A stretch of 64,000 nt of DNA. Source: Thermoplasmatota archaeon. GTDB lineage: Archaea > Thermoplasmatota > Thermoplasmata > Lutacidiplasmatales > JAMCUS01. Below, one piece after another: positions 8,329 through 16,101 of the stretch. Location: the NCBI GenBank assembly GCA_023379385.1, contig JAMCUS010000032.1:14243-78242 (forward strand), written 5' to 3'. Position 1 is the first letter of the stretch, and every line of letters starts with the position of its first letter. The translations under genes and the position numbers were made by a program. The notes under the pieces are model-generated. The model did no database searches and was not told where the DNA came from. It saw only the letters and a program-made list of their open reading frames with translations.

Positions 8329-9219
8329 ATGTATGTGTATAGAGATATTCCCTCTTTTATAGCGTTTGGTGTATCATTTATCATGCTATTATACGGTTCG
8401 TATATAGACTGGAAATTCAGAGAAATAGATAATTGGCCATGGGTTGTAATGGCCTTAACAGGTGTGTTTATAATTATTTATATTGATGGAAATACAATAG
8501 TTGAACTTTCACATATACTTCCATTTATCGCTGCCTTATTATCTCTGTTTGGACCTATTATTGATTGGGATGAAATTATAAAAATGGATGATCTGTATTA
8601 TATTCTTATAGATTACGGTAGCTATGTGATTTCTGCTATACTATTTTTACTAACTTATATATTTTTAGGCTTAAATAATTTTTTTATAACCATGCTTATA
8701 GTTTATATGATGTACGTTTTTATAAGGGTTTTGTATGAATTATCTGTGATACATGGCGGTGCTGATGCTAAAGCCCTTATGTCTATATCGTTTTTATTTT
8801 TTAATGGGTTTTCGTTGCCAGTAATTCCATTAATAAAGTATAACACAGTATTTCCTTTCTCATTTCAGGTTTTATTTGATGCCGTACTAATTTCACTATT
8901 CCTACCGGTATACTTTTTTATAATAAATATAAAAAACAGAAATATATCAATTCCATACATGCTATTTGGATACAAAATGTCATTACCAGAAGCCAAGAAA
9001 AAATATGTATGGCTTATGGAATTGCCAGGCAACAGAATGATTCTATTTCCAGGTAAGCTGGATGACGAGGTAATCAAACATGCATTTGATGGTCTTGAAC
9101 GTGAAAAAAAAGAAAATGTATGGGTCACGCCGCAGCTTCCGTTCATTATTTTCATTTTTGTTGGATATATTATTCAGACAATCTTCTTTAGTCCATTAGC
9201 ATTAATATTTTATCATTAA
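8329..9219 (+). CDS. A24-family aspartic peptidase, archaeal preflagellin/prepilin peptidase (FlaK/PibD-like)
   Basis: Polytopic membrane protein with the two catalytic Asp contexts YIDWKF and HGGADAKAL. Confidence 0.65.
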   Translation: MYVYRDIPSFIAFGVSFIMLLYGSYIDWKFREIDNWPWVVMALTGVFIIIYIDGNTIVELSHILPFIAALLSLFGPIIDWDEIIKMDDLYYILIDYGSYVISAILFLLTYIFLGLNNFFITMLIVYMMYVFIRVLYELSVIHGGADAKALMSISFLFFNGFSLPVIPLIKYNTVFPFSFQVLFDAVLISLFLPVYFFIINIKNRNISIPYMLFGYKMSLPEAKKKYVWLMELPGNRMILFPGKLDDEVIKHAFDGLEREKKENVWVTPQLPFIIFIFVGYIIQTIFFSPLALIFYH

Positions 9220-9410: not shown

Positions 9411-10037
9411 TCATTGAAGATCAATTGCTCCGCTCATAGACGTTAAACCACTTATTGGATGAACCTGAAGAGAATAACCATAAAAGTTTGATTGAGGTGG
9501 TGATTGAGTGTTGCTAAACCATACGATAGTTAACCATCCGCCTGCCTGAAGGGTTGTCATTCCATCCGGTGCTGTAGAGAAACAAACCGAAGGTTTATCT
9601 ACCGGTAACGTAACTGGGCATCCACTATATTGCCATGTACCAGGACCTGCGGTGTCAACACCACCTATATTGTATTGCCCCATATATTTACCAGTAGTAT
9701 TGAAATAATTAACGATAAAATAACCACCACCTGTAGGATTAGGAAATGGTATTCCTTGAGCATTAACAACAGAAAAACCCACATCCTGAATATGTATTGG
9801 GGCAGAGATAGTCATGATTGATACGTTCTCAATAATATATGTACTGGATGATGCCGCAGAGGTAGTACTGTAAAAAACAACATTTGCTGGAAGATATCTA
9901 GGTGCTTTAACAAGTCCTATAACCATTGTGTAAAGTATTCCAGCAAGTACGACTGTGATTGCAACCATAAGTACCGTTGCAATTACGGTGGAAACAGCTA
10001 CATCCCTTTTCTTTGAAATATTGGAATGTGTATACAT
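9411..10037 (-). CDS. Pilin-like surface protein with N-terminal class-III-like signal/anchor
   Basis: N-terminus SKKRDVAVSTVIATVLMVAITVVLAG (basic patch plus hydrophobic helix), then a Thr/Ser/Gly-rich beta-type domain; convergent with the prepilin peptidase. Confidence 0.4.
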   Translation of the reverse strand: MYTHSNISKKRDVAVSTVIATVLMVAITVVLAGILYTMVIGLVKAPRYLPANVVFYSTTSAASSSTYIIENVSIMTISAPIHIQDVGFSVVNAQGIPFPNPTGGGYFIVNYFNTTGKYMGQYNIGGVDTAGPGTWQYSGCPVTLPVDKPSVCFSTAPDGMTTLQAGGWLTIVWFSNTQSPPQSNFYGYSLQVHPISGLTSMSGAIDLQ

Positions 10038-10189: not shown

Positions 10190-11380
10190 TAAAAAGCGTA
10201 ATACAGAATTATAGTCCATCAGATAGAGTTTTCAGTCTTATGCATAAATTTACAGACGGTATTAATATGTGCATTAATATTGCTCTTGAAAAAAAAAATT
10301 AACCTCCAGAAATGCACTTTCAAAGAATGCATATCCACTCTTAACCGAGTATAAAATTCCCTCTTACTATTATCCGTCAATAATCAACAAGGCAATAGCA
10401 TTAACCAAAACCTACAACAAAAGATTGAGAAAAGGCAGGAAAGCAACCAGACCTCATGTTGAAAAGCCAATGCTGCCTACTTACTATGGGTTTAAAATTG
10501 AAAATGGCAATATTATGATTCCTGTTTCAAATGAGAAATATAAAAGAGAATATGAAGAAATATCATTAAATGAATATGTTCAAAAAAACATATCAGAAGT
10601 GAAAGTACACTCTTTTACATTGAATTAGACCAACCTTTCCTTATCAATAGGAAAGGATGTTGAAGTTATAGATTGTAAGAATACAGTTGGTGTAGACCGA
10701 AATTTGAAAAACGTAACTGTTGGTAATGAAGAGCATCAAGAGGTATATAACCTTTCAGACGTGGTAACCATTAAAAAAAGATATAAAAAGAAGATATCAC
10801 ATTTTAATAGAAATGATCGCAGGATAAAAAAGAAGATATATGAAAAATACGGTAAAAGATCTAAAAATAGAACTAAACAAATCATGCACACAGTGAGTAA
10901 ATAGATCGTGGAAAACGCAAAAAACAATAGCGAAGCAATAGTATTAGAAAATATCAAGGGTATAAAAGAGATAACACATAAAGGAGATAATAAAGGTAAA
11001 AATTACAGATTCATGTTTCATAATGCATTCCCATACGGTATGCTGGCAAATCAAATAAAATACAAGGGAGAATGGTTGGGTTTACGAGTAATAGAATTAT
11101 CAAGGAAAGAAACAAGGAACACAAGCAGAGAATGTTCGGTATGTGGGTCACTGACCCCCGAAAAGAACAGGGAAGAACTTTGATCTGTGAACGTTGTAGC
11201 CTGATAATAGACAGAGATGTAAATGCATCAATAAACATATCAAAACGTGGTCGTACATGGCTAACACGATCCCTACAGGAAATGGAAAAAGGGTGGTCAG
11301 GCGAAGCAATGAAGCAGTCAAAAGATGTGGAGCAGATGATCACAAGAGATAAAATCGTATCAAACTATGATATAAAATAA
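10190..11380 (+). pseudogene. IS200/IS605-type tnpB (OrfB) pseudogene with several frameshifts and stop codons
   Basis: ORF fragments 10425-10628, 10704-10904, 10908-11183 and 11072-11380 line up in series. They carry RuvC-I (GVDRNLKNVTVG), RuvC-II (IVLENIKGIKE) and the zinc-finger/RuvC-III segment (CSVCGS...CERCSLIIDRDVNASINI). There is an in-frame TAA at about 10902 and a frameshift near 11170. Confidence 0.6.
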
Positions 11381-11673: not shown

Positions 11674-12807
11674 ATGCCAAATGAATCTACTAATAATGTG
11701 ATATGTCCATTTTGTGGTGAGTCTGTTGATCAAAAATTGGCAGAGTGCCCCGTATGTGGAGCAAAGCTATTTGATGAGCTATTCATATGCCCCAGGTGTA
11801 CTGCTAGTGTTACATCTAAAGATGCAATATGTCCGTTATGTGGCGTTAAACTAGCAACAGAGATTTCAAAGGTACAGATAGAGGGTGGTAGTACATACGT
11901 TGTAACAGATGAAAATTTTTCATATAGGTTATTTAAAACCCTTACCGGGATGGATTACAAGGGATTGATATTATCAAAAATGAACTTACAGAAAATTGAA
12001 AAAAAATATTCCATAACTGATGCAACAGCGTATTGGTTGACAGCAACACAGGGAAAAGAAAAAACAATAGATCCACAGAGATTAGATTTTGAGTTGATGT
12101 ATACGGTATCTGAGTTTGTTAAAAACAATAGCCAAAGTGTTACAATCATAGATGCATTAACATTGCTTATATCTTCTAACGGTGGTCAAAAGGTTGGTGA
12201 TTTCATAAAGTATATTTCAGATCTTATATCCACAAAGGATTCAATCGTTATATTACCTGTTCAGGATAACTTCATGGAACAGAAAGATTATGATTTTATA
12301 AAGGAATATGTACAACCCATAAATTATAAAGAAATACAGAATGAGGTTACAGCAAATAAAGAAGCAGAAAAAATGAGAATTGTGATTAGAAAACAGAATA
12401 TAACTGGGAAAAAAGGCGATGAAAAGGTAATACCGTCATCCGCAAAAGTTGAAGGAACCGTTACTAGCGACATGAAGAATGATTTAAATAAAAAATCAAT
12501 GTTAACAGATACAACGCAAAATATAGAGGAGGTAAAAGGAAATATGAACCAATCTGTAGCTACAGGTCCAATAAGAATAAAATTAAGAGATTCTGAAACT
12601 GGTGCTGTACTTGAAATGGAGCTTGATATTGATAACACCATAGATGAACTCATAGAAAGTGCAGGCGCTTACTGGGAAAAGGCAACGGGTGTGTATGTTA
12701 TACGAAAAGGAAATAAAATTCTTAGAGGTAATATGAGAATTGGAGATGCCGATGTTAGAGATGGAGATATTATTGAGCTCATTCCAGATCCTGAAGGTGG
12801 AATATAA
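11674..12807 (+). CDS. Double zinc-ribbon + DUF835-like domain protein with C-terminal ThiS/MoaD/SAMP-like ubiquitin-like beta-grasp domain ending Gly-Gly-Ile
   Basis: The N-terminus has four CxxC pairs (CPFCG, CPVCG, CPRCT, CPLCG). The middle region has a DUF835-like WLT motif (ITDATAYWLTATQG). The C-terminal ~75 aa (IRIKLRDSE...VRDGDIIELIPDPEGGI) resemble the ThiS/MoaD tail (DGDxIxIxPPxxGG). It is the first gene of a tightly packed four-gene operon. Confidence 0.75.
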   Translation: MPNESTNNVICPFCGESVDQKLAECPVCGAKLFDELFICPRCTASVTSKDAICPLCGVKLATEISKVQIEGGSTYVVTDENFSYRLFKTLTGMDYKGLILSKMNLQKIEKKYSITDATAYWLTATQGKEKTIDPQRLDFELMYTVSEFVKNNSQSVTIIDALTLLISSNGGQKVGDFIKYISDLISTKDSIVILPVQDNFMEQKDYDFIKEYVQPINYKEIQNEVTANKEAEKMRIVIRKQNITGKKGDEKVIPSSAKVEGTVTSDMKNDLNKKSMLTDTTQNIEEVKGNMNQSVATGPIRIKLRDSETGAVLEMELDIDNTIDELIESAGAYWEKATGVYVIRKGNKILRGNMRIGDADVRDGDIIELIPDPEGGI

Positions 12808-12825
12808 AAATGGAGGTGGTTATAG

Positions 12826-13320
12826 ATGACTCAGCCACTTTCTTTTATTAGACAGAGATTACTAGCAGAAATTGAACAGGTTAAAAAGTTGATGGAGTAT
12901 CCTGTTGAGGTATCTGATCCAACTTTAACAAATTTTCCTATAGAAGTTACAATAACAATTCAAAAAATTCCTGGACCATATCTTAAGGATGGTAAGTTAT
13001 CGACACGATATACTCACAAATTCAAGATTATTGTAGATGCTGAATATCCCTATAAAAAACCAGTGATTCACTGGCTAACACCAATATTTCATCCTAACAT
13101 AATGCCACCTCATGAAGGTGGATACATATGTACAAAAATGTTAAAGGTATGGTCGTCTCAGTCATCCATTGTTTCTTTTATTCAGGGTGTGATAACATTG
13201 TTAAGCAATCCCAATCCATACGATCCACTAGGTAGTGATGCATGTTTAATGTCGGCACAATATTTTGTCAAACATCCGTATCACCCACCATCTATATTAA
13301 AAAAAGGAGAAGAAGACTGA
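12826..13320 (+). CDS. Ubiquitin-conjugating enzyme (E2/UBC fold) homologue
   Basis: UBC signature HPNImpphegGyICtkmLkvWs: the HPN motif, a catalytic Cys in the G-x-IC context, and a downstream Trp; 164 aa. Confidence 0.8.
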   Translation: MTQPLSFIRQRLLAEIEQVKKLMEYPVEVSDPTLTNFPIEVTITIQKIPGPYLKDGKLSTRYTHKFKIIVDAEYPYKKPVIHWLTPIFHPNIMPPHEGGYICTKMLKVWSSQSSIVSFIQGVITLLSNPNPYDPLGSDACLMSAQYFVKHPYHPPSILKKGEED

Positions 13321-13351: not shown

Positions 13352-15241
13352 ATGTCAAAAGGTATAAAGATCGTTGCGGAACATAAAAGAGAGGTTAAAG
13401 AAATACCTCCACCAGATAGAGATAGAATTTCATATCATAAATGGGATTCTGCAGAATCAACCGAAATTTATGTTAATACATATAGATCTGGCAATCTTTT
13501 TGATGTATATATATCCAAAAAAGCGGAGGAGAAGATGATGAATCACTGTCTGTCCGGTGTTCCAACAAGGACAGAGGTCATGGGTCTACTTGTAGGGGAT
13601 ATATACAGATATAACAATACAATATATGCAGTTATCAAGGATGTTTCCACTACAGAACTTGATGCCAATGCCGTTCATGTCCAGATAAATAAAGAGGATT
13701 CTTCATATACAAAATTATTTCAAAGATTAGATGAAATTGGCGCAAATTTTATTCTTGTCGGATGGTATCATTCACACCCAGGACATACATGTTTTCTATC
13801 TGAAACAGATATTAATACACAGAAAAAGATGTTTCCAGAATCATACCATTCTGCAATAGTTATAGACCCTATTTCACAGCAGTTTGAGGTGTTTACTGTT
13901 GACAATGAAGGTGGGTACATTAGAAGATCGCATGCAATCTTCTGGGATGATTTTGAAAAGCCCTATGTAGTTGAAGAGGCTCCTCCAGTACCATCATTTC
14001 AGGGTGGTTATGCTGCAAATGAGGGTATATTAGCCGAAAGGTATAACGATATTACCAATAGAGAAGCCATACTGAAAAATCATGAAATGGAATTAACTAA
14101 CCTCAGAAATAGCTTAATTGCGAAAGAGAGAGAACTAATCGAAAGAGAGAATATGTTTGCAAAACAGGGGCAGATGGCATCGGCAACTACCGCCACATAT
14201 GCTGATAGAATGAACATAGAAAGAGAGAGAATTGAATCTCTTGCTAAAAATATTGCTGTCAGAGATGCAGATCTAAGAAGAAGGGAAGAACAGATAAAAA
14301 ACATAGAAATGGAATTGAGAAAAAGAGAATCAGAAGTTGTCAAATATACTGGATTAACAGAGAGCATAAAAAAAGAATGGGAAAGAATAAGTACAGATAA
14401 AAATAATATTGAGTTTGCACAGAAATCTATATCCAGAAAGGAAATTGAATTGAAAGAGAAAGAGTCTATATTAAAAGCAAAGGAGGAGGAGCTGGCGGCT
14501 TTAGGATTGATACCCAGTGTTAAAGAGGAACTGGATAAATCAAAGATAGAACTTAATAGGCTCAATAATGAGATAAAACAGAGGGAGGAAGCACTAAAAT
14601 TAAAAGAGAATGATTATAATAAAAGAAGGAGGGAAATTGAAGCCATGCAAAAGGAATACACTTCGAAGCTGCATGAACTTAATGAACTGGAACTATCCCT
14701 GAAAACCAAATCTGTTACATTGACAACTAAAGAAGCAGAAATAGAGAAAATTAAGGAGTTACAGTCCGAAAAGGAAGTAGAACTTAAAAATCGTGAAACA
14801 AAGATCACTGAGATGGAAGAAAAACTGCAGCGTGGATTAACAGATCTGAAAAGTAGGACAGAAATACATGCAGCCAAAGAAAGCACATTCAGTTTGAAAG
14901 AGATGGAACTCCAGAAGGAGAGTAAAGAACTTGAAAATATTAATATAAAGCTTAAGAAAGAAGAGAAAATTATAAAAATGCTTACAGATACATTTGGAAA
15001 GACCGTTATCAGTAGTGGTGCCATAAAGCAATATAACAGTAGTGACGAATTTTATAAAGATATGATAATCAGAGCAAAGGAGCAACTTTCAACCATGGCT
15101 GAAGAGTTTGTAATAATACAAAAAAATACACAGAAAATGTTAACACTTCTGAAAACCACGAAAAAAATAGCAGATAAAACAGTTTCCAAAAGAAAAACAA
15201 AAAAGAAGGTACGAACTGTATGGAAAAAGGCAGCAAAATAA
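13352..15241 (+). CDS. JAB/MPN (JAMM) metallopeptidase fused to a ~400-aa coiled-coil region
   Basis: Complete JAMM motif: Glu in TEVMGLLVGD, then HSHPGHTCFLSETD (HxHx7Sx2D). The C-terminal ~420 aa are heptad-rich E/K/L repeats. Confidence 0.85.
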   Translation: MSKGIKIVAEHKREVKEIPPPDRDRISYHKWDSAESTEIYVNTYRSGNLFDVYISKKAEEKMMNHCLSGVPTRTEVMGLLVGDIYRYNNTIYAVIKDVSTTELDANAVHVQINKEDSSYTKLFQRLDEIGANFILVGWYHSHPGHTCFLSETDINTQKKMFPESYHSAIVIDPISQQFEVFTVDNEGGYIRRSHAIFWDDFEKPYVVEEAPPVPSFQGGYAANEGILAERYNDITNREAILKNHEMELTNLRNSLIAKERELIERENMFAKQGQMASATTATYADRMNIERERIESLAKNIAVRDADLRRREEQIKNIEMELRKRESEVVKYTGLTESIKKEWERISTDKNNIEFAQKSISRKEIELKEKESILKAKEEELAALGLIPSVKEELDKSKIELNRLNNEIKQREEALKLKENDYNKRRREIEAMQKEYTSKLHELNELELSLKTKSVTLTTKEAEIEKIKELQSEKEVELKNRETKITEMEEKLQRGLTDLKSRTEIHAAKESTFSLKEMELQKESKELENINIKLKKEEKIIKMLTDTFGKTVISSGAIKQYNSSDEFYKDMIIRAKEQLSTMAEEFVIIQKNTQKMLTLLKTTKKIADKTVSKRKTKKKVRTVWKKAAK

Positions 15242-16101
15242 AAATAATTACCAAGAATAAAAAAGAAAAAAAAGATTCTGTTAGCCAGGGCAAGGCAAAA
15301 AAAAGTATAAAAAAGTTAAAGATCGGGTATGAAGATAGCGATATACACGACAGGATTAAAAGAATACCATGGATAAAAATTGATAAAATCAAAAAATCAA
15401 GGGTGCTGGTTATTGGAGCCGGTGCAATAGGTAACGAGGTAATGAAAAATCTTGCCTTGTCAGGATTTAATGACATAACATTAATAGATATGGACCATGT
15501 GGTGATTTCAAATCTTAACAGATGTCTTTTTTTTACTTTTGAAGATGCAAAATCGAAAATATATAAGGTAGATGCTATTAAAAATCATATAAAAGATATG
15601 GTTTCATCAATCAATATCAAAGGAATTACAAAGCCAGTTGAAGAGATAGAGGAAGAGTTTTTCAACAATTTTGATATAATATTCGGTTGCGTGGATAACA
15701 TACTTGCCAGGGTCAGAATAAATAGCCTGGCGTCGCATTATCAGATTCCATATGTGGATGGTGGAACTCATGGGATGGTTGGTAAGGTACAGGTGATATT
15801 ACCTCCTGATACGCCATGCATTGAATGCAATCTAAATATTTCACATTACAAAAATTTGGAACAGCTTTTTACATGTTCAGGACGTGATGATACGAAGGCA
15901 TTCGAGCCAAAAATACCTGCTGAAGTCACAACAACAGCGATTATAGCGGGAGTCATGGTTAGAGAGGGACTAAAGATTTTATCTGATAAGAGAGACAATG
16001 TAATAAAGCATATATTCTATTATGATGGATTAACAAATAAATCAGATATTCTTGAATCAGAGATAAGCAAGGGATGCAGCAATCACAGTAAAAATCATTG
16101 A
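15220..16101 (+). CDS. E1-like ubiquitin-activating enzyme (ThiF/MoeB/UBA family)
   Basis: Rossmann motif VLVIGAGAIGNEV, adenylation motif DMDHVVISNLNRC, and the Cys-rich C-terminal region DTPCIECN; 22-nt overlap with the JAB gene. Confidence 0.85.
   Translation: MEKGSKIKIITKNKKEKKDSVSQGKAKKSIKKLKIGYEDSDIHDRIKRIPWIKIDKIKKSRVLVIGAGAIGNEVMKNLALSGFNDITLIDMDHVVISNLNRCLFFTFEDAKSKIYKVDAIKNHIKDMVSSINIKGITKPVEEIEEEFFNNFDIIFGCVDNILARVRINSLASHYQIPYVDGGTHGMVGKVQVILPPDTPCIECNLNISHYKNLEQLFTCSGRDDTKAFEPKIPAEVTTTAIIAGVMVREGLKILSDKRDNVIKHIFYYDGLTNKSDILESEISKGCSNHSKNH

What the first reader, a model, noticed from the sequence alone, without database searches (positions are those of the whole stretch)
12571..12807. 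Ubl domain is C-terminally fused to a double-zinc-ribbon/DUF835 protein and ends in GG-I, implying maturation by the co-encoded JAB
The last residues are ...IELIPDPEGG-I. Conjugatable beta-grasp proteins need a free terminal Gly-Gly, so the single extra Ile suggests processing by the adjacent JAMM peptidase, as in the CysO/Mec+ and SAMP maturation logic. The ~300 N-terminal residues (four CxxC pairs and a KaiC-like DUF835 region) would then be the cargo. Alternatively the whole protein is the conjugated entity. I do not know of this architecture in a described system.
Basis: seen in the sequence. Interest (0 to 1): 0.65.

Follow-up and report, generated by a model that had tools for sequence, protein, structure and literature searches.

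The report
Cargo-bearing archaeal ubiquitin-like modifier precursor
A Thermoplasmatota archaeon encodes a ubiquitin-like domain at the end of a 377-residue zinc-ribbon/inactive-KaiC protein, inside an operon with eukaryote-like E1, E2 and Rpn11-type enzymes, so the whole protein is probably trimmed after Gly-Gly and attached to targets: a new variant of a known kind of system.

Summary
Window 11674-12807 (+) encodes a 377-aa protein with four invariant CxxC pairs (DZR), a DUF835/inactive-KaiC domain, a roughly 80-residue disordered linker and a confidently predicted ubiquitin fold (residues 300-376) ending ...ELIPDPEGG-I-stop.

The next three genes are a UBC-type E2 (HPN + Cys), an Rpn11-like JAMM peptidase with a long coiled-coil tail, and a ThiF-type E1.

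Three orthologous lineages, all Thermoplasmata MAGs, keep the fusion, the operon and the invariant GG. The tail after GG varies: I, K, IREGE, LGWQNLYLL.

The nearest outgroup operons (E1-Ubl-E2-JAB) encode a free 79-82-aa orthologue, 56% identical, that ends exactly in ...ELIPDPEGG-stop. Other family members are Ubl-GG-E2 fusions. The fusion is therefore a derived, conjugation-competent pro-Ubl, and trimming by the JAB is the best reading. It is inferred from the Caldiarchaeum Rpn11 and bacterial BilC precedents, not shown here.

One new wrinkle: all three lineages keep an in-frame ATG with a Shine-Dalgarno-like motif just upstream of the Ubl, so a free Ubl may also be made.

An unrelated 1684-aa protein fuses the same Ubl family to DUF835 independently.

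Verdict: new variant of a known kind, of moderate interest.

The parts
11674..12807 (+). Gene for the 377-aa DZR-DUF835-linker-Ubl protein (NCBI MCL4326417.1, annotated only as 'DUF835 domain-containing protein')
   Evidence: ORF listing and sequence. The exact sequence is in public databases on 14 contigs. Orthologues occur in three lineages.
11704..11844 (+). Double zinc ribbon, residues 11-57, with four invariant CxxC pairs
   Evidence: Pfam DZR at 28.6 bits against a cut-off of 27.3. All eight Cys are invariant in alignment A1. The AlphaFold2 model is low-confidence here.
11902..12303 (+). DUF835 (inactive KaiC/RecA-like) domain, residues 77-210, with no Walker A motif
   Evidence: Pfam PF05763 at E 3.8e-19. 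Foldseek matches FlaH 4yds at E 1.2e-5 over 165 columns. DUF835 is classed as iKaiC in PMC5847659.
12325..12561 (+). Disordered linker rich in K, E and N, residues about 218-296. Its sequence and length are not conserved, but the frame always stays open.
   Evidence: pLDDT is below 30. The alignment shows no conservation. There are 0 stops in frame against 5-17 in the other forward frames, and the indels are in frame.
12526..12546 (+). Internal Shine-Dalgarno-like GAGGAGGT (12526-12533) plus an in-frame ATG (12544-12546, Met291). This is a candidate start for a free 87-aa Ubl.
   Evidence: The equivalent SD+ATG is present in all three lineages. Codon-shuffle P values are 0.038, 0.021 and 0.106. 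The background is 7.6% of internal ATGs. This is a candidate only.
12571..12801 (+). Ubiquitin-like beta-grasp domain, residues 300-376, ending in Gly375-Gly376
   Evidence: AlphaFold2 pLDDT 89. Foldseek TM is about 0.8 to Hub1, Ub, ISG15 and CsUb. The domain is 56% identical to the free Ubl of L012/L013.
12802..12804 (+). Ile377, the single residue after GG and the predicted leaving group of JAB trimming
   Evidence: Tails vary among orthologues: I, K, IREGE, LGWQNLYLL. A near-identical strain (P0001) differs from the window protein only at this residue, which is K.
12826..13320 (+). UBC-type E2, 164 aa, with HPN at residues 89-91 and Cys102
   Evidence: Pfam UQ_con at 5e-15. The best PDB matches are UBE2T, UBE2N and UBE2D. 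HPN and C102 are invariant.
13352..15241 (+). Rpn11-like JAMM peptidase (domain about residues 50-176) with a C-terminal extension of about 450 aa that looks like a coiled coil
   Evidence: Pfam JAB at 6e-17. The best PDB matches are yeast Rpn11 at 5e-18 and CsRpn11 at 5e-13. E75, H140, H142, S150 and D153 are invariant. The coiled coil is inferred from composition and weak RNase_Y_N and MukB-like hits.
15220..16101 (+). ThiF-type E1, 293 aa
   Evidence: Pfam ThiF at 3.8e-54. The best PDB matches are SAE2, UBA3 and UBA1. The GxGxxG motif, the zinc ligands C200/C203/C286/H289 and C219 are all invariant.

Best explanation
The gene encodes the modifier of a four-gene, eukaryote-like ubiquitin-type conjugation operon, made as a precursor that carries cargo.

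Proposed mechanism:
1. The Rpn11-like JAMM peptidase removes Ile377 and exposes Gly376.
2. The ThiF-type E1 adenylates Gly376, probably forming a thioester on Cys219.
3. The modifier passes to Cys102 of the UBC-type E2.
4. It is then joined by an isopeptide bond to lysines of targets, or of other copies of itself.

Because the beta-grasp sits at the C-terminus, nothing separates it from the N-terminal part. The whole 376-residue protein (zinc ribbons, inactive-KaiC domain, 80-residue flexible linker, Ubl) is therefore the conjugated entity. No RING or other E3 was found in the four operon proteins. The DZR-DUF835 module is therefore the best candidate for targeting, oligomerisation or effector function, and may tie conjugation to KaiC-type signalling partners. 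The same JAB would reverse the conjugation.

Shown here: the domain architecture, the fold, intact catalytic motifs in E1, E2 and JAB, the invariant GG with a variable tail, free orthologues ending in GG, and conservation of the operon.

Inferred: JAB trimming, E1/E2 transfer, conjugation of the full-length protein, and any role of the N-terminal module.
For: The operon fusion-E2-JAB-E1 is conserved in three lineages that are 39-58% identical.

ELIPDPEGG is invariant while the tail differs.

The sister operons L012 and L013 have the order E1, free Ubl, E2, short JAB, and their Ubl ends exactly in GG. L015 and L016 show the same E1-Ubl-E2 order. Most family members are free Ubls ending in GG. 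Ubl-GG-E2 fusions also exist, and these need cleavage after GG.

The fused Ubls form one clade nested among free Ubls.

Catalytic residues are intact: HPN/C102 in the E2, the E1 motifs and the JAMM motif. All three enzymes match eukaryotic Rpn11, UBE2 and SAE2/UBA1 best.

Only one copy of this Ubl exists in the 64-kb window, so the operon has no other modifier nearby.

The linker frame is kept open with in-frame indels, so the fusion is under selection.

Precedents: CsRpn11 cleaves CsUb-pre exactly after GG (PMC6043591). BilC pre-processes BilA, which carries up to 9 residues after its conserved Gly (PMC10557695). Bacterial Ubls with N-terminal domains are described in 10.1101/2024.11.21.623966.

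A second, independent fusion of this Ubl family with DUF835 (P0030) supports a functional link between the two domains.
Against: There is no experimental evidence for any step.

A conserved internal SD+ATG just upstream of the Ubl could yield a free Ubl, and that product might be the real modifier.

In P0030 the same Ubl family is fused to DUF835 without a GG. The Ubl-DUF835 partnership can therefore be non-covalent.

The full-length model has low overall confidence (pTM 0.43) and says nothing about contacts between domains.

Only 64 kb of the genome was seen, so a free Ubl gene elsewhere cannot be excluded.

Nothing indicates the targets.
Confidence: 0.6

Rival explanations
1. One gene gives two products. 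Translation also starts at the conserved internal SD+ATG (Met291 in the window) and gives a free Ubl of about 87 aa. That free Ubl is the true conjugated modifier. The full-length fusion is a second isoform, for example an adaptor, a decoy, or a scaffold that docks E1, E2 or JAB through its Ubl.
For: All three lineages have an in-frame ATG 3-13 codons upstream of the Ubl. It is preceded by AGGTG, GAGGTG or GGAGGT at the same spacing as at the real gene starts, although the linker is otherwise unconserved.

In the L007 group the Met aligns exactly with the start of free Ubls (MSIRVKV against MxxRxxV).

Codon-shuffle P values are 0.038, 0.021 and 0.106, with a product of 8e-5. Only 7.6% of internal ATGs in the window carry such a motif, against 24% of ORF starts.
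Against: The motif could be a decaying relic of the ancestral Ubl gene start. The test was post hoc, and the three ATGs are not at homologous positions.

No internal TATA-like element is conserved.

If only a free Ubl were needed, nothing would keep the 55-84-codon linker frame open in every lineage.

This reading is compatible with the best explanation and does not exclude it.
Confidence: 0.25
2. The C-terminal Ubl is a non-conjugated interaction domain, like Rad60/NIP45 SUMO-like domains or UBL-domain shuttle proteins. It would dock the DZR-DUF835 protein onto the E2, E1, JAB or another partner, and the GG would be vestigial.
For: The family contains non-conjugatable Ubl fusions: Ubl-FHA, Ubl-VWA, and P0030 with Ubl and DUF835 but no GG. 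The Pfam and Foldseek hits include Rad60 SLD.
Against: GG and the preceding ELIPDPE are invariant in all fusion orthologues and identical to free orthologues that stop at GG. By contrast, the non-conjugatable fusions have lost GG.

The Ubl is at the extreme C-terminus with only 1-9 variable residues after GG.

No other Ubl gene is in the operon or in the window, which would leave E1, E2 and JAB without a substrate.
Confidence: 0.1
3. The protein is a sulfur-carrier system of the ThiS/MoaD/CysO type. The Ubl C-terminus would be thiocarboxylated by the E1 and the JAB would act like Mec+. This is the analogy the first reader used.
For: The E1 is a short ThiF/MoeB-type protein. In one lineage (L001, L014, L018) a class-V aminotransferase, which may be a cysteine desulfurase, follows the E1. 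C-terminal ThiS fusions to enzymes are known (PMC1779556).
Against: A canonical UBC E2 with HPN and Cys is conserved in every operon.

The fold and sequence are closest to ubiquitin, Hub1, ISG15 and CsUb. No ThiS, MoaD or SAMP appears among the top 50 Foldseek hits.

The E1 matches SAE2, UBA3 and UBA1 far better than MoeB or ThiF, and Pfam reports only ThiF-family and generic NAD(P)-binding-fold hits for it, with no rhodanese domain.

The aminotransferase neighbour is absent from the window and from L007.
Confidence: 0.03
4. The fusion is an assembly or gene-calling artefact, such as a lost stop codon or a frameshift between a DUF835 gene and a Ubl gene.
For: The ancestral arrangement has a free Ubl gene, and the internal SD+ATG resembles a gene start.
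Against: The same continuous ORF is present in more than 10 independent contigs and assemblies from three lineages. The indels are in frame and there are no stops in frame, against 5-17 in the other forward frames.
Confidence: 0.02

Closest known systems
Caldiarchaeum subterraneum (Aigarchaeota) and Asgard eukaryote-like ubiquitin operon: Ub, E1, E2, small RING E3, Rpn11 (PMC3082918, PMC5654768, PMC6043591)
   Same: Both have a ubiquitin-fold modifier; CsUb is the top (full-length model) or tenth (domain-only model) Foldseek hit at 22% identity. Both make it as a precursor with residues after GG. Both have a ThiF-type E1, a UBC E2 with HPN and Cys, and an Rpn11-like JAMM, and in Caldiarchaeum that peptidase trims the precursor exactly after GG. 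Both are operon-encoded in an archaeon.
   Different: Pfam found no RING E3 in the four operon proteins. The modifier carries about 300 N-terminal residues (DZR, DUF835 and linker) instead of being about 80 aa. The JAB carries a coiled-coil tail of 450-700 aa. The host is Thermoplasmatota. The window JAB matches yeast Rpn11 (5e-18) better than CsRpn11 (5e-13).
Bacterial Type II BilABCD and Bub operons whose Ubls have N-terminal domains (PMC10557695; 10.1101/2024.11.21.623966)
   Same: Both are four-part Ubl, E2, JAB, E1 operons. The Ubl has up to 9 non-conserved residues after the conserved Gly, removed by the JAB (BilC). Some single-beta-grasp Ubls carry N-terminal disordered, coiled-coil or DUF1508 domains and are still taken to be the conjugated species.
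   Different: The enzymes differ. The Bil E1 has an extra N-terminal inactive adenylation domain (PF14459), and the Bil E2 is non-canonical. Here the E1 is a 293-aa single module and the E2 is a canonical UBC. The N-terminal domains also differ (DZR + DUF835). The host is archaeal, there is no evidence of a defence role, and PADLOC gives only generic JAB and E1 hits.
Type II CBASS Cap2/Cap3 (conjugation of the cGAS-like CD-NTase)
   Same: A whole functional protein of about 40 kDa is activated at its C-terminal glycine by E1/E2 chemistry and attached to targets, and a JAB peptidase antagonises or trims it. This is a precedent for the whole protein being the conjugated entity (summarised in PMC10557695 and PMC10449767).
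   Different: In CBASS the E1 and E2 are fused (Cap2), the substrate has no beta-grasp domain, and the system is bacterial antiphage immunity.
Archaeal SAMP/UbaA/JAMM1 sampylation and mycobacterial CysO/Mec+
   Same: Both use a beta-grasp protein with a C-terminal GG, an E1-like adenylase, and a JAMM that can trim precursors.
   Different: Those systems have no E2. Their modifiers are ThiS- or MoaD-like and double as sulfur carriers. Here a canonical E2 is present and the fold is ubiquitin-like rather than ThiS- or MoaD-like.
DUF835 (PF05763, 'iKaiC') output domains of archaeal response regulators (PMC5847659)
   Same: The N-terminal globular domain passes the Pfam threshold for DUF835. It lacks a Walker A motif and resembles FlaH.
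   Different: The known architectures are REC-DUF835 and REC-PAS-DUF835. Neither the one paper in the library that mentions DUF835 nor the public annotation of this protein reports a combination with a zinc ribbon and a Ubl.

Membership tests
Ubiquitin-like beta-grasp modifiers competent for conjugation | beta-grasp (beta-beta-alpha-beta-beta-beta) fold | tested here: met
   AlphaFold2 pLDDT is 89. Foldseek TM is about 0.8 to Ub, Hub1, ISG15, CsUb and SUMO.
Ubiquitin-like beta-grasp modifiers competent for conjugation | A flexible C-terminal tail ending in, or processed to, Gly-Gly | tested here: met
   The protein ends ...PDPEGG-I. GG is invariant in all orthologues, and free orthologues stop at GG.
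Ubiquitin-like beta-grasp modifiers competent for conjugation | Actual adenylation, thioester formation and isopeptide conjugation | not testable with these tools
   This needs biochemistry.
Eukaryote-like archaeal ubiquitin system (Caldiarchaeum type) | Operon with E1 (ThiF fold), E2 (UBC with HPN-Cys) and an Rpn11-like JAMM | tested here: met
   
Eukaryote-like archaeal ubiquitin system (Caldiarchaeum type) | RING-type E3 (srfp) in the operon | tested here: not met
   Pfam gives no RING hit above threshold in the four operon proteins. The N-terminal 8-Cys module scores as a tandem zinc ribbon (DZR), with only weak RING hits at E 0.009-0.13. The neighbouring genes in the window are unrelated.
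Eukaryote-like archaeal ubiquitin system (Caldiarchaeum type) | Free-standing Ub of about 80 aa made as a short-tailed precursor | tested here: not met
   The tail is present, but the modifier is 377 aa with an N-terminal DZR-DUF835. The sister clade does have the free form.
BilABCD (bacterial ISG15-like) operons | E1 with an N-terminal inactive adenylation domain (PF14459) and a non-canonical E2 | tested here: not met
   The E1 is 293 aa with a ThiF domain only, and the E2 is a canonical UQ_con. PADLOC has no specific hit.
SAMP/UbaA and CysO/Mec+ sulfur-carrier type systems | No E2; ThiS- or MoaD-like modifier; link to sulfur transfer | tested here: not met
   An E2 is present and conserved. 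The fold hits are Ub-like, not ThiS- or MoaD-like. No conserved sulfur-metabolism neighbour is present.
DUF835 (PF05763) | Score above the Pfam gathering threshold | tested here: met
   The score is 69.3 bits against a cut-off of 33.1, over residues 77-210.
DZR double zinc ribbon (PF12773) | Score above the Pfam gathering threshold, with four CxxC pairs | tested here: met
   The score is 28.6 bits against a cut-off of 27.3. All eight Cys are invariant. The margin is narrow, and the structure model is low-confidence.

The most novel reading that the evidence does not exclude
A self-targeting ubiquitin-like modifier. In an operon where no RING E3 was found, the modifier carries its own recognition or effector module (zinc ribbons plus an inactive KaiC domain). 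E1/E2 would then covalently plant an iKaiC signalling module on partners such as KaiC/FlaH-type ATPase assemblies. The coiled-coil Rpn11 would act as the matching scaffold and eraser. The same ORF would also deliver a free Ubl from a conserved internal start, so one gene would supply both plain and cargo-bearing ubiquitin.
Probability: 0.2. Interest if true: 0.78.

Novelty: new variant of a known kind. Interest (0 to 1): 0.55.

Why it matters
Archaeal ubiquitin-type systems with a real E2 are rare, and so far they have been studied only in vitro with Caldiarchaeum proteins. Their targets and physiological roles are unknown.

This clade offers a built-in clue. The modifier is welded to an inactive-KaiC (DUF835) domain, which is otherwise known as an output domain of archaeal response regulators. 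A second, unrelated giant protein joins the same Ubl family to DUF835. This makes a specific hypothesis testable: that Ub-like conjugation is coupled to KaiC-type signalling assemblies.

The finding also extends to archaea, and to a eukaryote-like enzyme set, the recent bacterial observation that Ubls can carry N-terminal functional domains. It gives a natural example of a protein of about 41 kDa that is probably conjugated as a whole.

Public annotation does not record the Ubl domain at all. The names given are "DUF835 domain-containing protein" and "RPABC4/Spt4".

Tried and rejected
- **Word-indexed search with the Ubl domain alone.** It returned only an 87-aa fragment of the same gene and was uninformative.
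- **PADLOC.** It gave only generic CBASS-type JAB and E1-E2 model hits, and none for the Ubl protein or the E2. There is no support for a known defence system.
- **Makarova et al. 2017 (iKaiC paper).** It is not held in the library.
- **Viral contig scan with the Ubl profile.** No relatives were found.
- **A second Ubl copy in the window.** None was found.
- **Conserved internal promoter upstream of the internal ATG.** A TTTAAATA at -61 exists only in the window and is not conserved, so it was rejected as evidence.
- **RING-like reading of the eight-Cys module.** The spacing (CxxC-x10-CxxC-x10-CxxC-x10-CxxC) and the Pfam scores favour tandem zinc ribbons. The structure model is too poor to decide.
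- **N-terminal release of the Ubl by the JAB.** This was rejected because JAMM/Rpn11 enzymes cleave after the Ubl C-terminal GG, and the linker has no conserved site.
- **Conserved flanking genes.** None was found beyond the four operon genes.
- **Literature searches.** They found no paper that links DUF835 with ubiquitin-like proteins or that describes E1/E2/JAB operons in Thermoplasmata. The library does not cover all journals.
- **Caveat on the representative library.** It did not list the full-length fusion proteins themselves, only a fragment. Other C-terminal Ubl fusions could therefore be hidden behind cluster representatives.
Full report
**What is in the sequence.** The ORF at 11674-12807 (+) encodes 377 residues and ends ...IELIPDPEGGI followed by TAA. 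The two Gly codons are at 12796-12801 and Ile377 is at 12802-12804. Pfam finds a double zinc ribbon (residues 11-57, just above threshold) and DUF835 (residues 77-210, E 3.8e-19). On the last 78 residues it gives only sub-threshold ubiquitin-like hits, YukD and Rad60-SLD. AlphaFold2 on a three-sequence alignment gives a DUF835 core of moderate confidence, a disordered linker (218-296, pLDDT below 30) and a beta-beta-alpha-beta-beta-beta domain at residues 300-371 with pLDDT 77-89. The domain alone reaches mean pLDDT 89. Foldseek against the PDB returns Hub1/UBL5, ubiquitin, the ISG15 C-terminal domain, Caldiarchaeum ubiquitin (22% identity) and SUMO at TM about 0.8. No ThiS, MoaD or SAMP entry appears among the top 50. 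The N-terminal globular part matches the KaiC-like FlaH.

**The operon.** Three genes follow on the same strand. The first is a UBC-type E2 (12826-13320; Pfam UQ_con 5e-15; best PDB matches UBE2T, UBE2N and UBE2D; HPN 89-91 and Cys102 invariant). The second is a JAMM peptidase (13352-15241) whose catalytic domain matches yeast Rpn11 (5e-18) better than Caldiarchaeum Rpn11 (5e-13). It has an intact E...HxH...S..D motif and carries a C-terminal extension of about 450 residues that looks like a coiled coil. The third is a 293-aa ThiF-type E1 (15220-16101) that matches SAE2, UBA3 and UBA1 far better than MoeB or ThiF, with nucleotide-binding, zinc and candidate catalytic Cys residues conserved. 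Pfam detects no RING E3 in these four proteins. PADLOC gives only generic JAB and E1 hits. Base composition is uniform at about 33% GC. The flanking genes are a GATase, a prepilin peptidase, a type IV pilin, a degraded TnpB-like element, a radical-SAM protein, QueC and a QueE-like radical-SAM protein. None of these is conserved in the orthologous loci.

**Relatives of the fusion.** Searches of 5.8 billion proteins, the GTDB species genomes and JGI metagenomes found the fusion only in Thermoplasmata/Thermoplasmatota MAGs. It falls into three lineages: the window type, the L001/L006/L014/L017/L018 type (58% identity), and the L002/L007/L008 type (39-44% identity). The order is always fusion-E2-JAB(long)-E1. 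The Ubl is the best-conserved part, at 66-78% identity in the domain alignment A3. ELIPDPEGG is invariant, whereas the residues after GG are I, K, IREGE, LGWQNLYLL or LGWLNLYLL. A near-identical strain differs from the window protein only at the last residue, K instead of I. The linker differs in sequence and length, but its frame is always open. It has 0 in-frame stops against 5-17 in the other forward frames, and the indels are in frame. The fusion is therefore real and maintained.

**The decisive comparison.** The closest E2 relatives outside the clade (44-45% identity; L012 from GCA_974322095.1 and L013) lie in operons ordered E1, 79-82-aa protein, E2, short JAB (214-217 aa, no coiled coil). 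The small protein is 56% identical to the window's C-terminal domain and ends exactly ...ELIPDPEGG-stop. A profile of the domain, searched against 1.84 billion cluster representatives, finds 77 relatives. Most are free 73-84-aa proteins. Many stop at GG, and some have tails of 1-5 residues (V, K, NR, AR, CNGSA, F). Four are Ubl-GG-E2 fusions, which must be cut after GG to work. Others have lost GG and are fused to FHA, VWA or other domains. Two more loci show the order E1-Ubl-E2. In a neighbour-joining tree, which has no support values and rests on a short alignment, the fused Ubls form one clade sister to the L012/L013 free Ubls. The fusion is therefore a single derived event. It occurred in a family whose members are ordinary, conjugation-type, GG-terminated Ubls. 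It coincides with the gain of the coiled-coil tail on the JAB and with the move of the E1 gene.

**Mechanism.** The best-supported reading is a cargo-bearing pro-Ubl. The Rpn11-like JAB would remove the residue(s) after Gly376. E1 would adenylate Gly376. E2 Cys102 would carry the thioester. The entire protein would then be attached to lysines, and the JAB would also reverse this. Trimming after GG by an operon-encoded JAMM is demonstrated for Caldiarchaeum CsUb-pre, where a 9-residue tail is removed (PMC6043591). It is also demonstrated for bacterial BilA and BilC, with up to nine residues after the conserved Gly (PMC10557695). From general knowledge, N-terminal extensions on ubiquitin (tags, ISG15, FAT10) do not block E1/E2. 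Bacterial Ubls with N-terminal disordered, coiled-coil or DUF1508 domains are described (10.1101/2024.11.21.623966). In type II CBASS a whole enzyme is conjugated through its C-terminus. All steps beyond sequence, fold and conservation are inference. What the DZR-DUF835 module does is unknown. DUF835 is regarded as an inactivated KaiC-like domain that serves as an output of archaeal response regulators (PMC5847659). With no RING E3 detected in the operon, it is the obvious candidate for targeting or oligomerisation.

First, all three lineages keep an in-frame ATG 3-13 codons upstream of the Ubl. It is preceded by AGGTG, GAGGTG or GGAGGT at the same distance as at the genuine gene starts. In the window these are GAGGAGGT at 12526-12533 and ATG at 12544. 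In the L007 group the Met aligns with the start of free Ubls. Codon shuffles of each linker give P values of 0.038, 0.021 and 0.106. Only 7.6% of internal ATGs in the window carry such a motif. This is either a relic of the ancestral Ubl gene start or a working internal start that also yields a free Ubl. The test was post hoc, and no internal promoter is conserved.

Second, a 1684-aa protein from an unrelated locus (P0030, L020) combines a zinc finger, TPR repeats, a long coiled coil, a Ubl of this same family (47% identical to the window's, but without GG) and a C-terminal DUF835. This is an independent Rosetta-stone link between this Ubl family, DUF835, zinc fingers and coiled coils. It also shows that the partnership need not be covalent.

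**Rivals.** The dual-product model is given 0.25 and is compatible with the main model. A non-conjugated docking Ubl is given 0.1. It is disfavoured by the invariant terminal GG, by the lack of another Ubl in the window, and by the fact that non-conjugatable relatives have lost GG. A sulfur-carrier system is given 0.03, disfavoured by the conserved canonical E2 and the ubiquitin-like rather than ThiS-like fold. An artefact is given 0.02, excluded by more than 10 independent contigs.

**Novelty and verdict.** The kind is known: operon-encoded Ubl, E1, E2 and JAB with a tailed pro-Ubl, and Ubls with N-terminal domains. Four things are new here:
- the domain content (double zinc ribbon plus iKaiC/DUF835);
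- the archaeal, eukaryote-like enzyme set in Thermoplasmatota without a detectable RING E3 in the operon;
- the co-evolved coiled-coil Rpn11;
- the possible internal start.

Public annotation calls the protein only "DUF835 domain-containing protein" or "RPABC4/Spt4". I found no paper that links DUF835 to Ubls. I rate it a new variant of a known kind, with interest 0.55.

Noticed in passing
window 13352-15241; L007 8595-11240; L001 9650-11554: In the fusion clade only, the Rpn11-like JAB carries a K/E-rich C-terminal extension of 450-700 aa that looks like a coiled coil (629, 634 and 881 aa in total). The L007 version also has a CxxC...CxxC zinc ribbon just after the JAB domain. The sister-clade JABs are 214-217 aa. 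The gain coincides with the Ubl fusion.
   Followed up: partly
L020 8001-13055 (protein P0030, JGI 3300041077): A 1684-aa protein has a zinc finger, TPR repeats, a long coiled coil, a Ubl of the same family (47% identical, no GG) and a C-terminal DUF835. It is not next to E1, E2 or JAB genes. This is an independent second fusion of this Ubl family with DUF835.
   Followed up: partly
window 12526-12546, and the equivalent sites in L001, L018, L007, L008 and L002: A conserved internal Shine-Dalgarno-like motif plus an in-frame ATG lies a few codons before the Ubl domain in all three lineages, within a linker that is otherwise unconserved. The product of the codon-shuffle P values is about 8e-5.
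   Followed up: partly
window 12790-12828; L001 about 9120-9150: The codons for ...P-E-G-G (cct GAAGGTGG) lie just upstream of the E2 gene and resemble a Shine-Dalgarno site for it. In the L001-type genes the E2 start (TTG) overlaps the Ubl tail LGWQNLYLL, so the tail sequence looks like a by-product of gene overlap.
   Followed up: partly
proteins P0027, P0073, P0081, P0084: These are Ubl-GG-E2 single-chain fusions in the same Ubl family, with GG at the junction. They would need cleavage after GG to release both parts, as in bacterial BubAB.
   Followed up: partly
proteins P0023, P0031, P0035; P0075, P0061, P0088, P0041: The same Ubl family also occurs N-terminally fused, without GG, to an FHA domain. 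It is also fused to a small conserved domain, with or without VWA and a zinc ribbon. These look like non-conjugatable Ubl-domain proteins.
   Followed up: partly
window 10425-11380 (+): A series of short overlapping ORFs carries split hits to the Cas12f1-like/TnpB TNB zinc-ribbon domain. It is apparently a frameshifted TnpB-type transposon remnant immediately upstream of the operon.
   Followed up: partly
window 8329-9219 (+) and 9411-10037 (-): An archaeal prepilin peptidase (A24) and a type IV pilin-like protein lie just upstream. They are not conserved next to the operon in the other lineages.
   Followed up: partly
L012 5025-6158; L013 8207-9361: In the sister-clade operons, a conserved 377-384-aa protein with no Pfam hit follows the JAB gene. 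It has an N-terminal signal-like segment and a C-terminal transmembrane segment. Whether it belongs to the system is unknown.
   Followed up: no
L001 12437-13675; L014 10289-11527; L018 10425-11663: A class-V aminotransferase, possibly a cysteine desulfurase, directly follows the E1 gene in one lineage only.
   Followed up: no
result: The 50%-identity representative library returned only an 87-aa fragment (P0004) for the fusion clade. It returned none of the full-length 353-391-aa fusion proteins, so architectures can be hidden behind cluster representatives.
   Followed up: no
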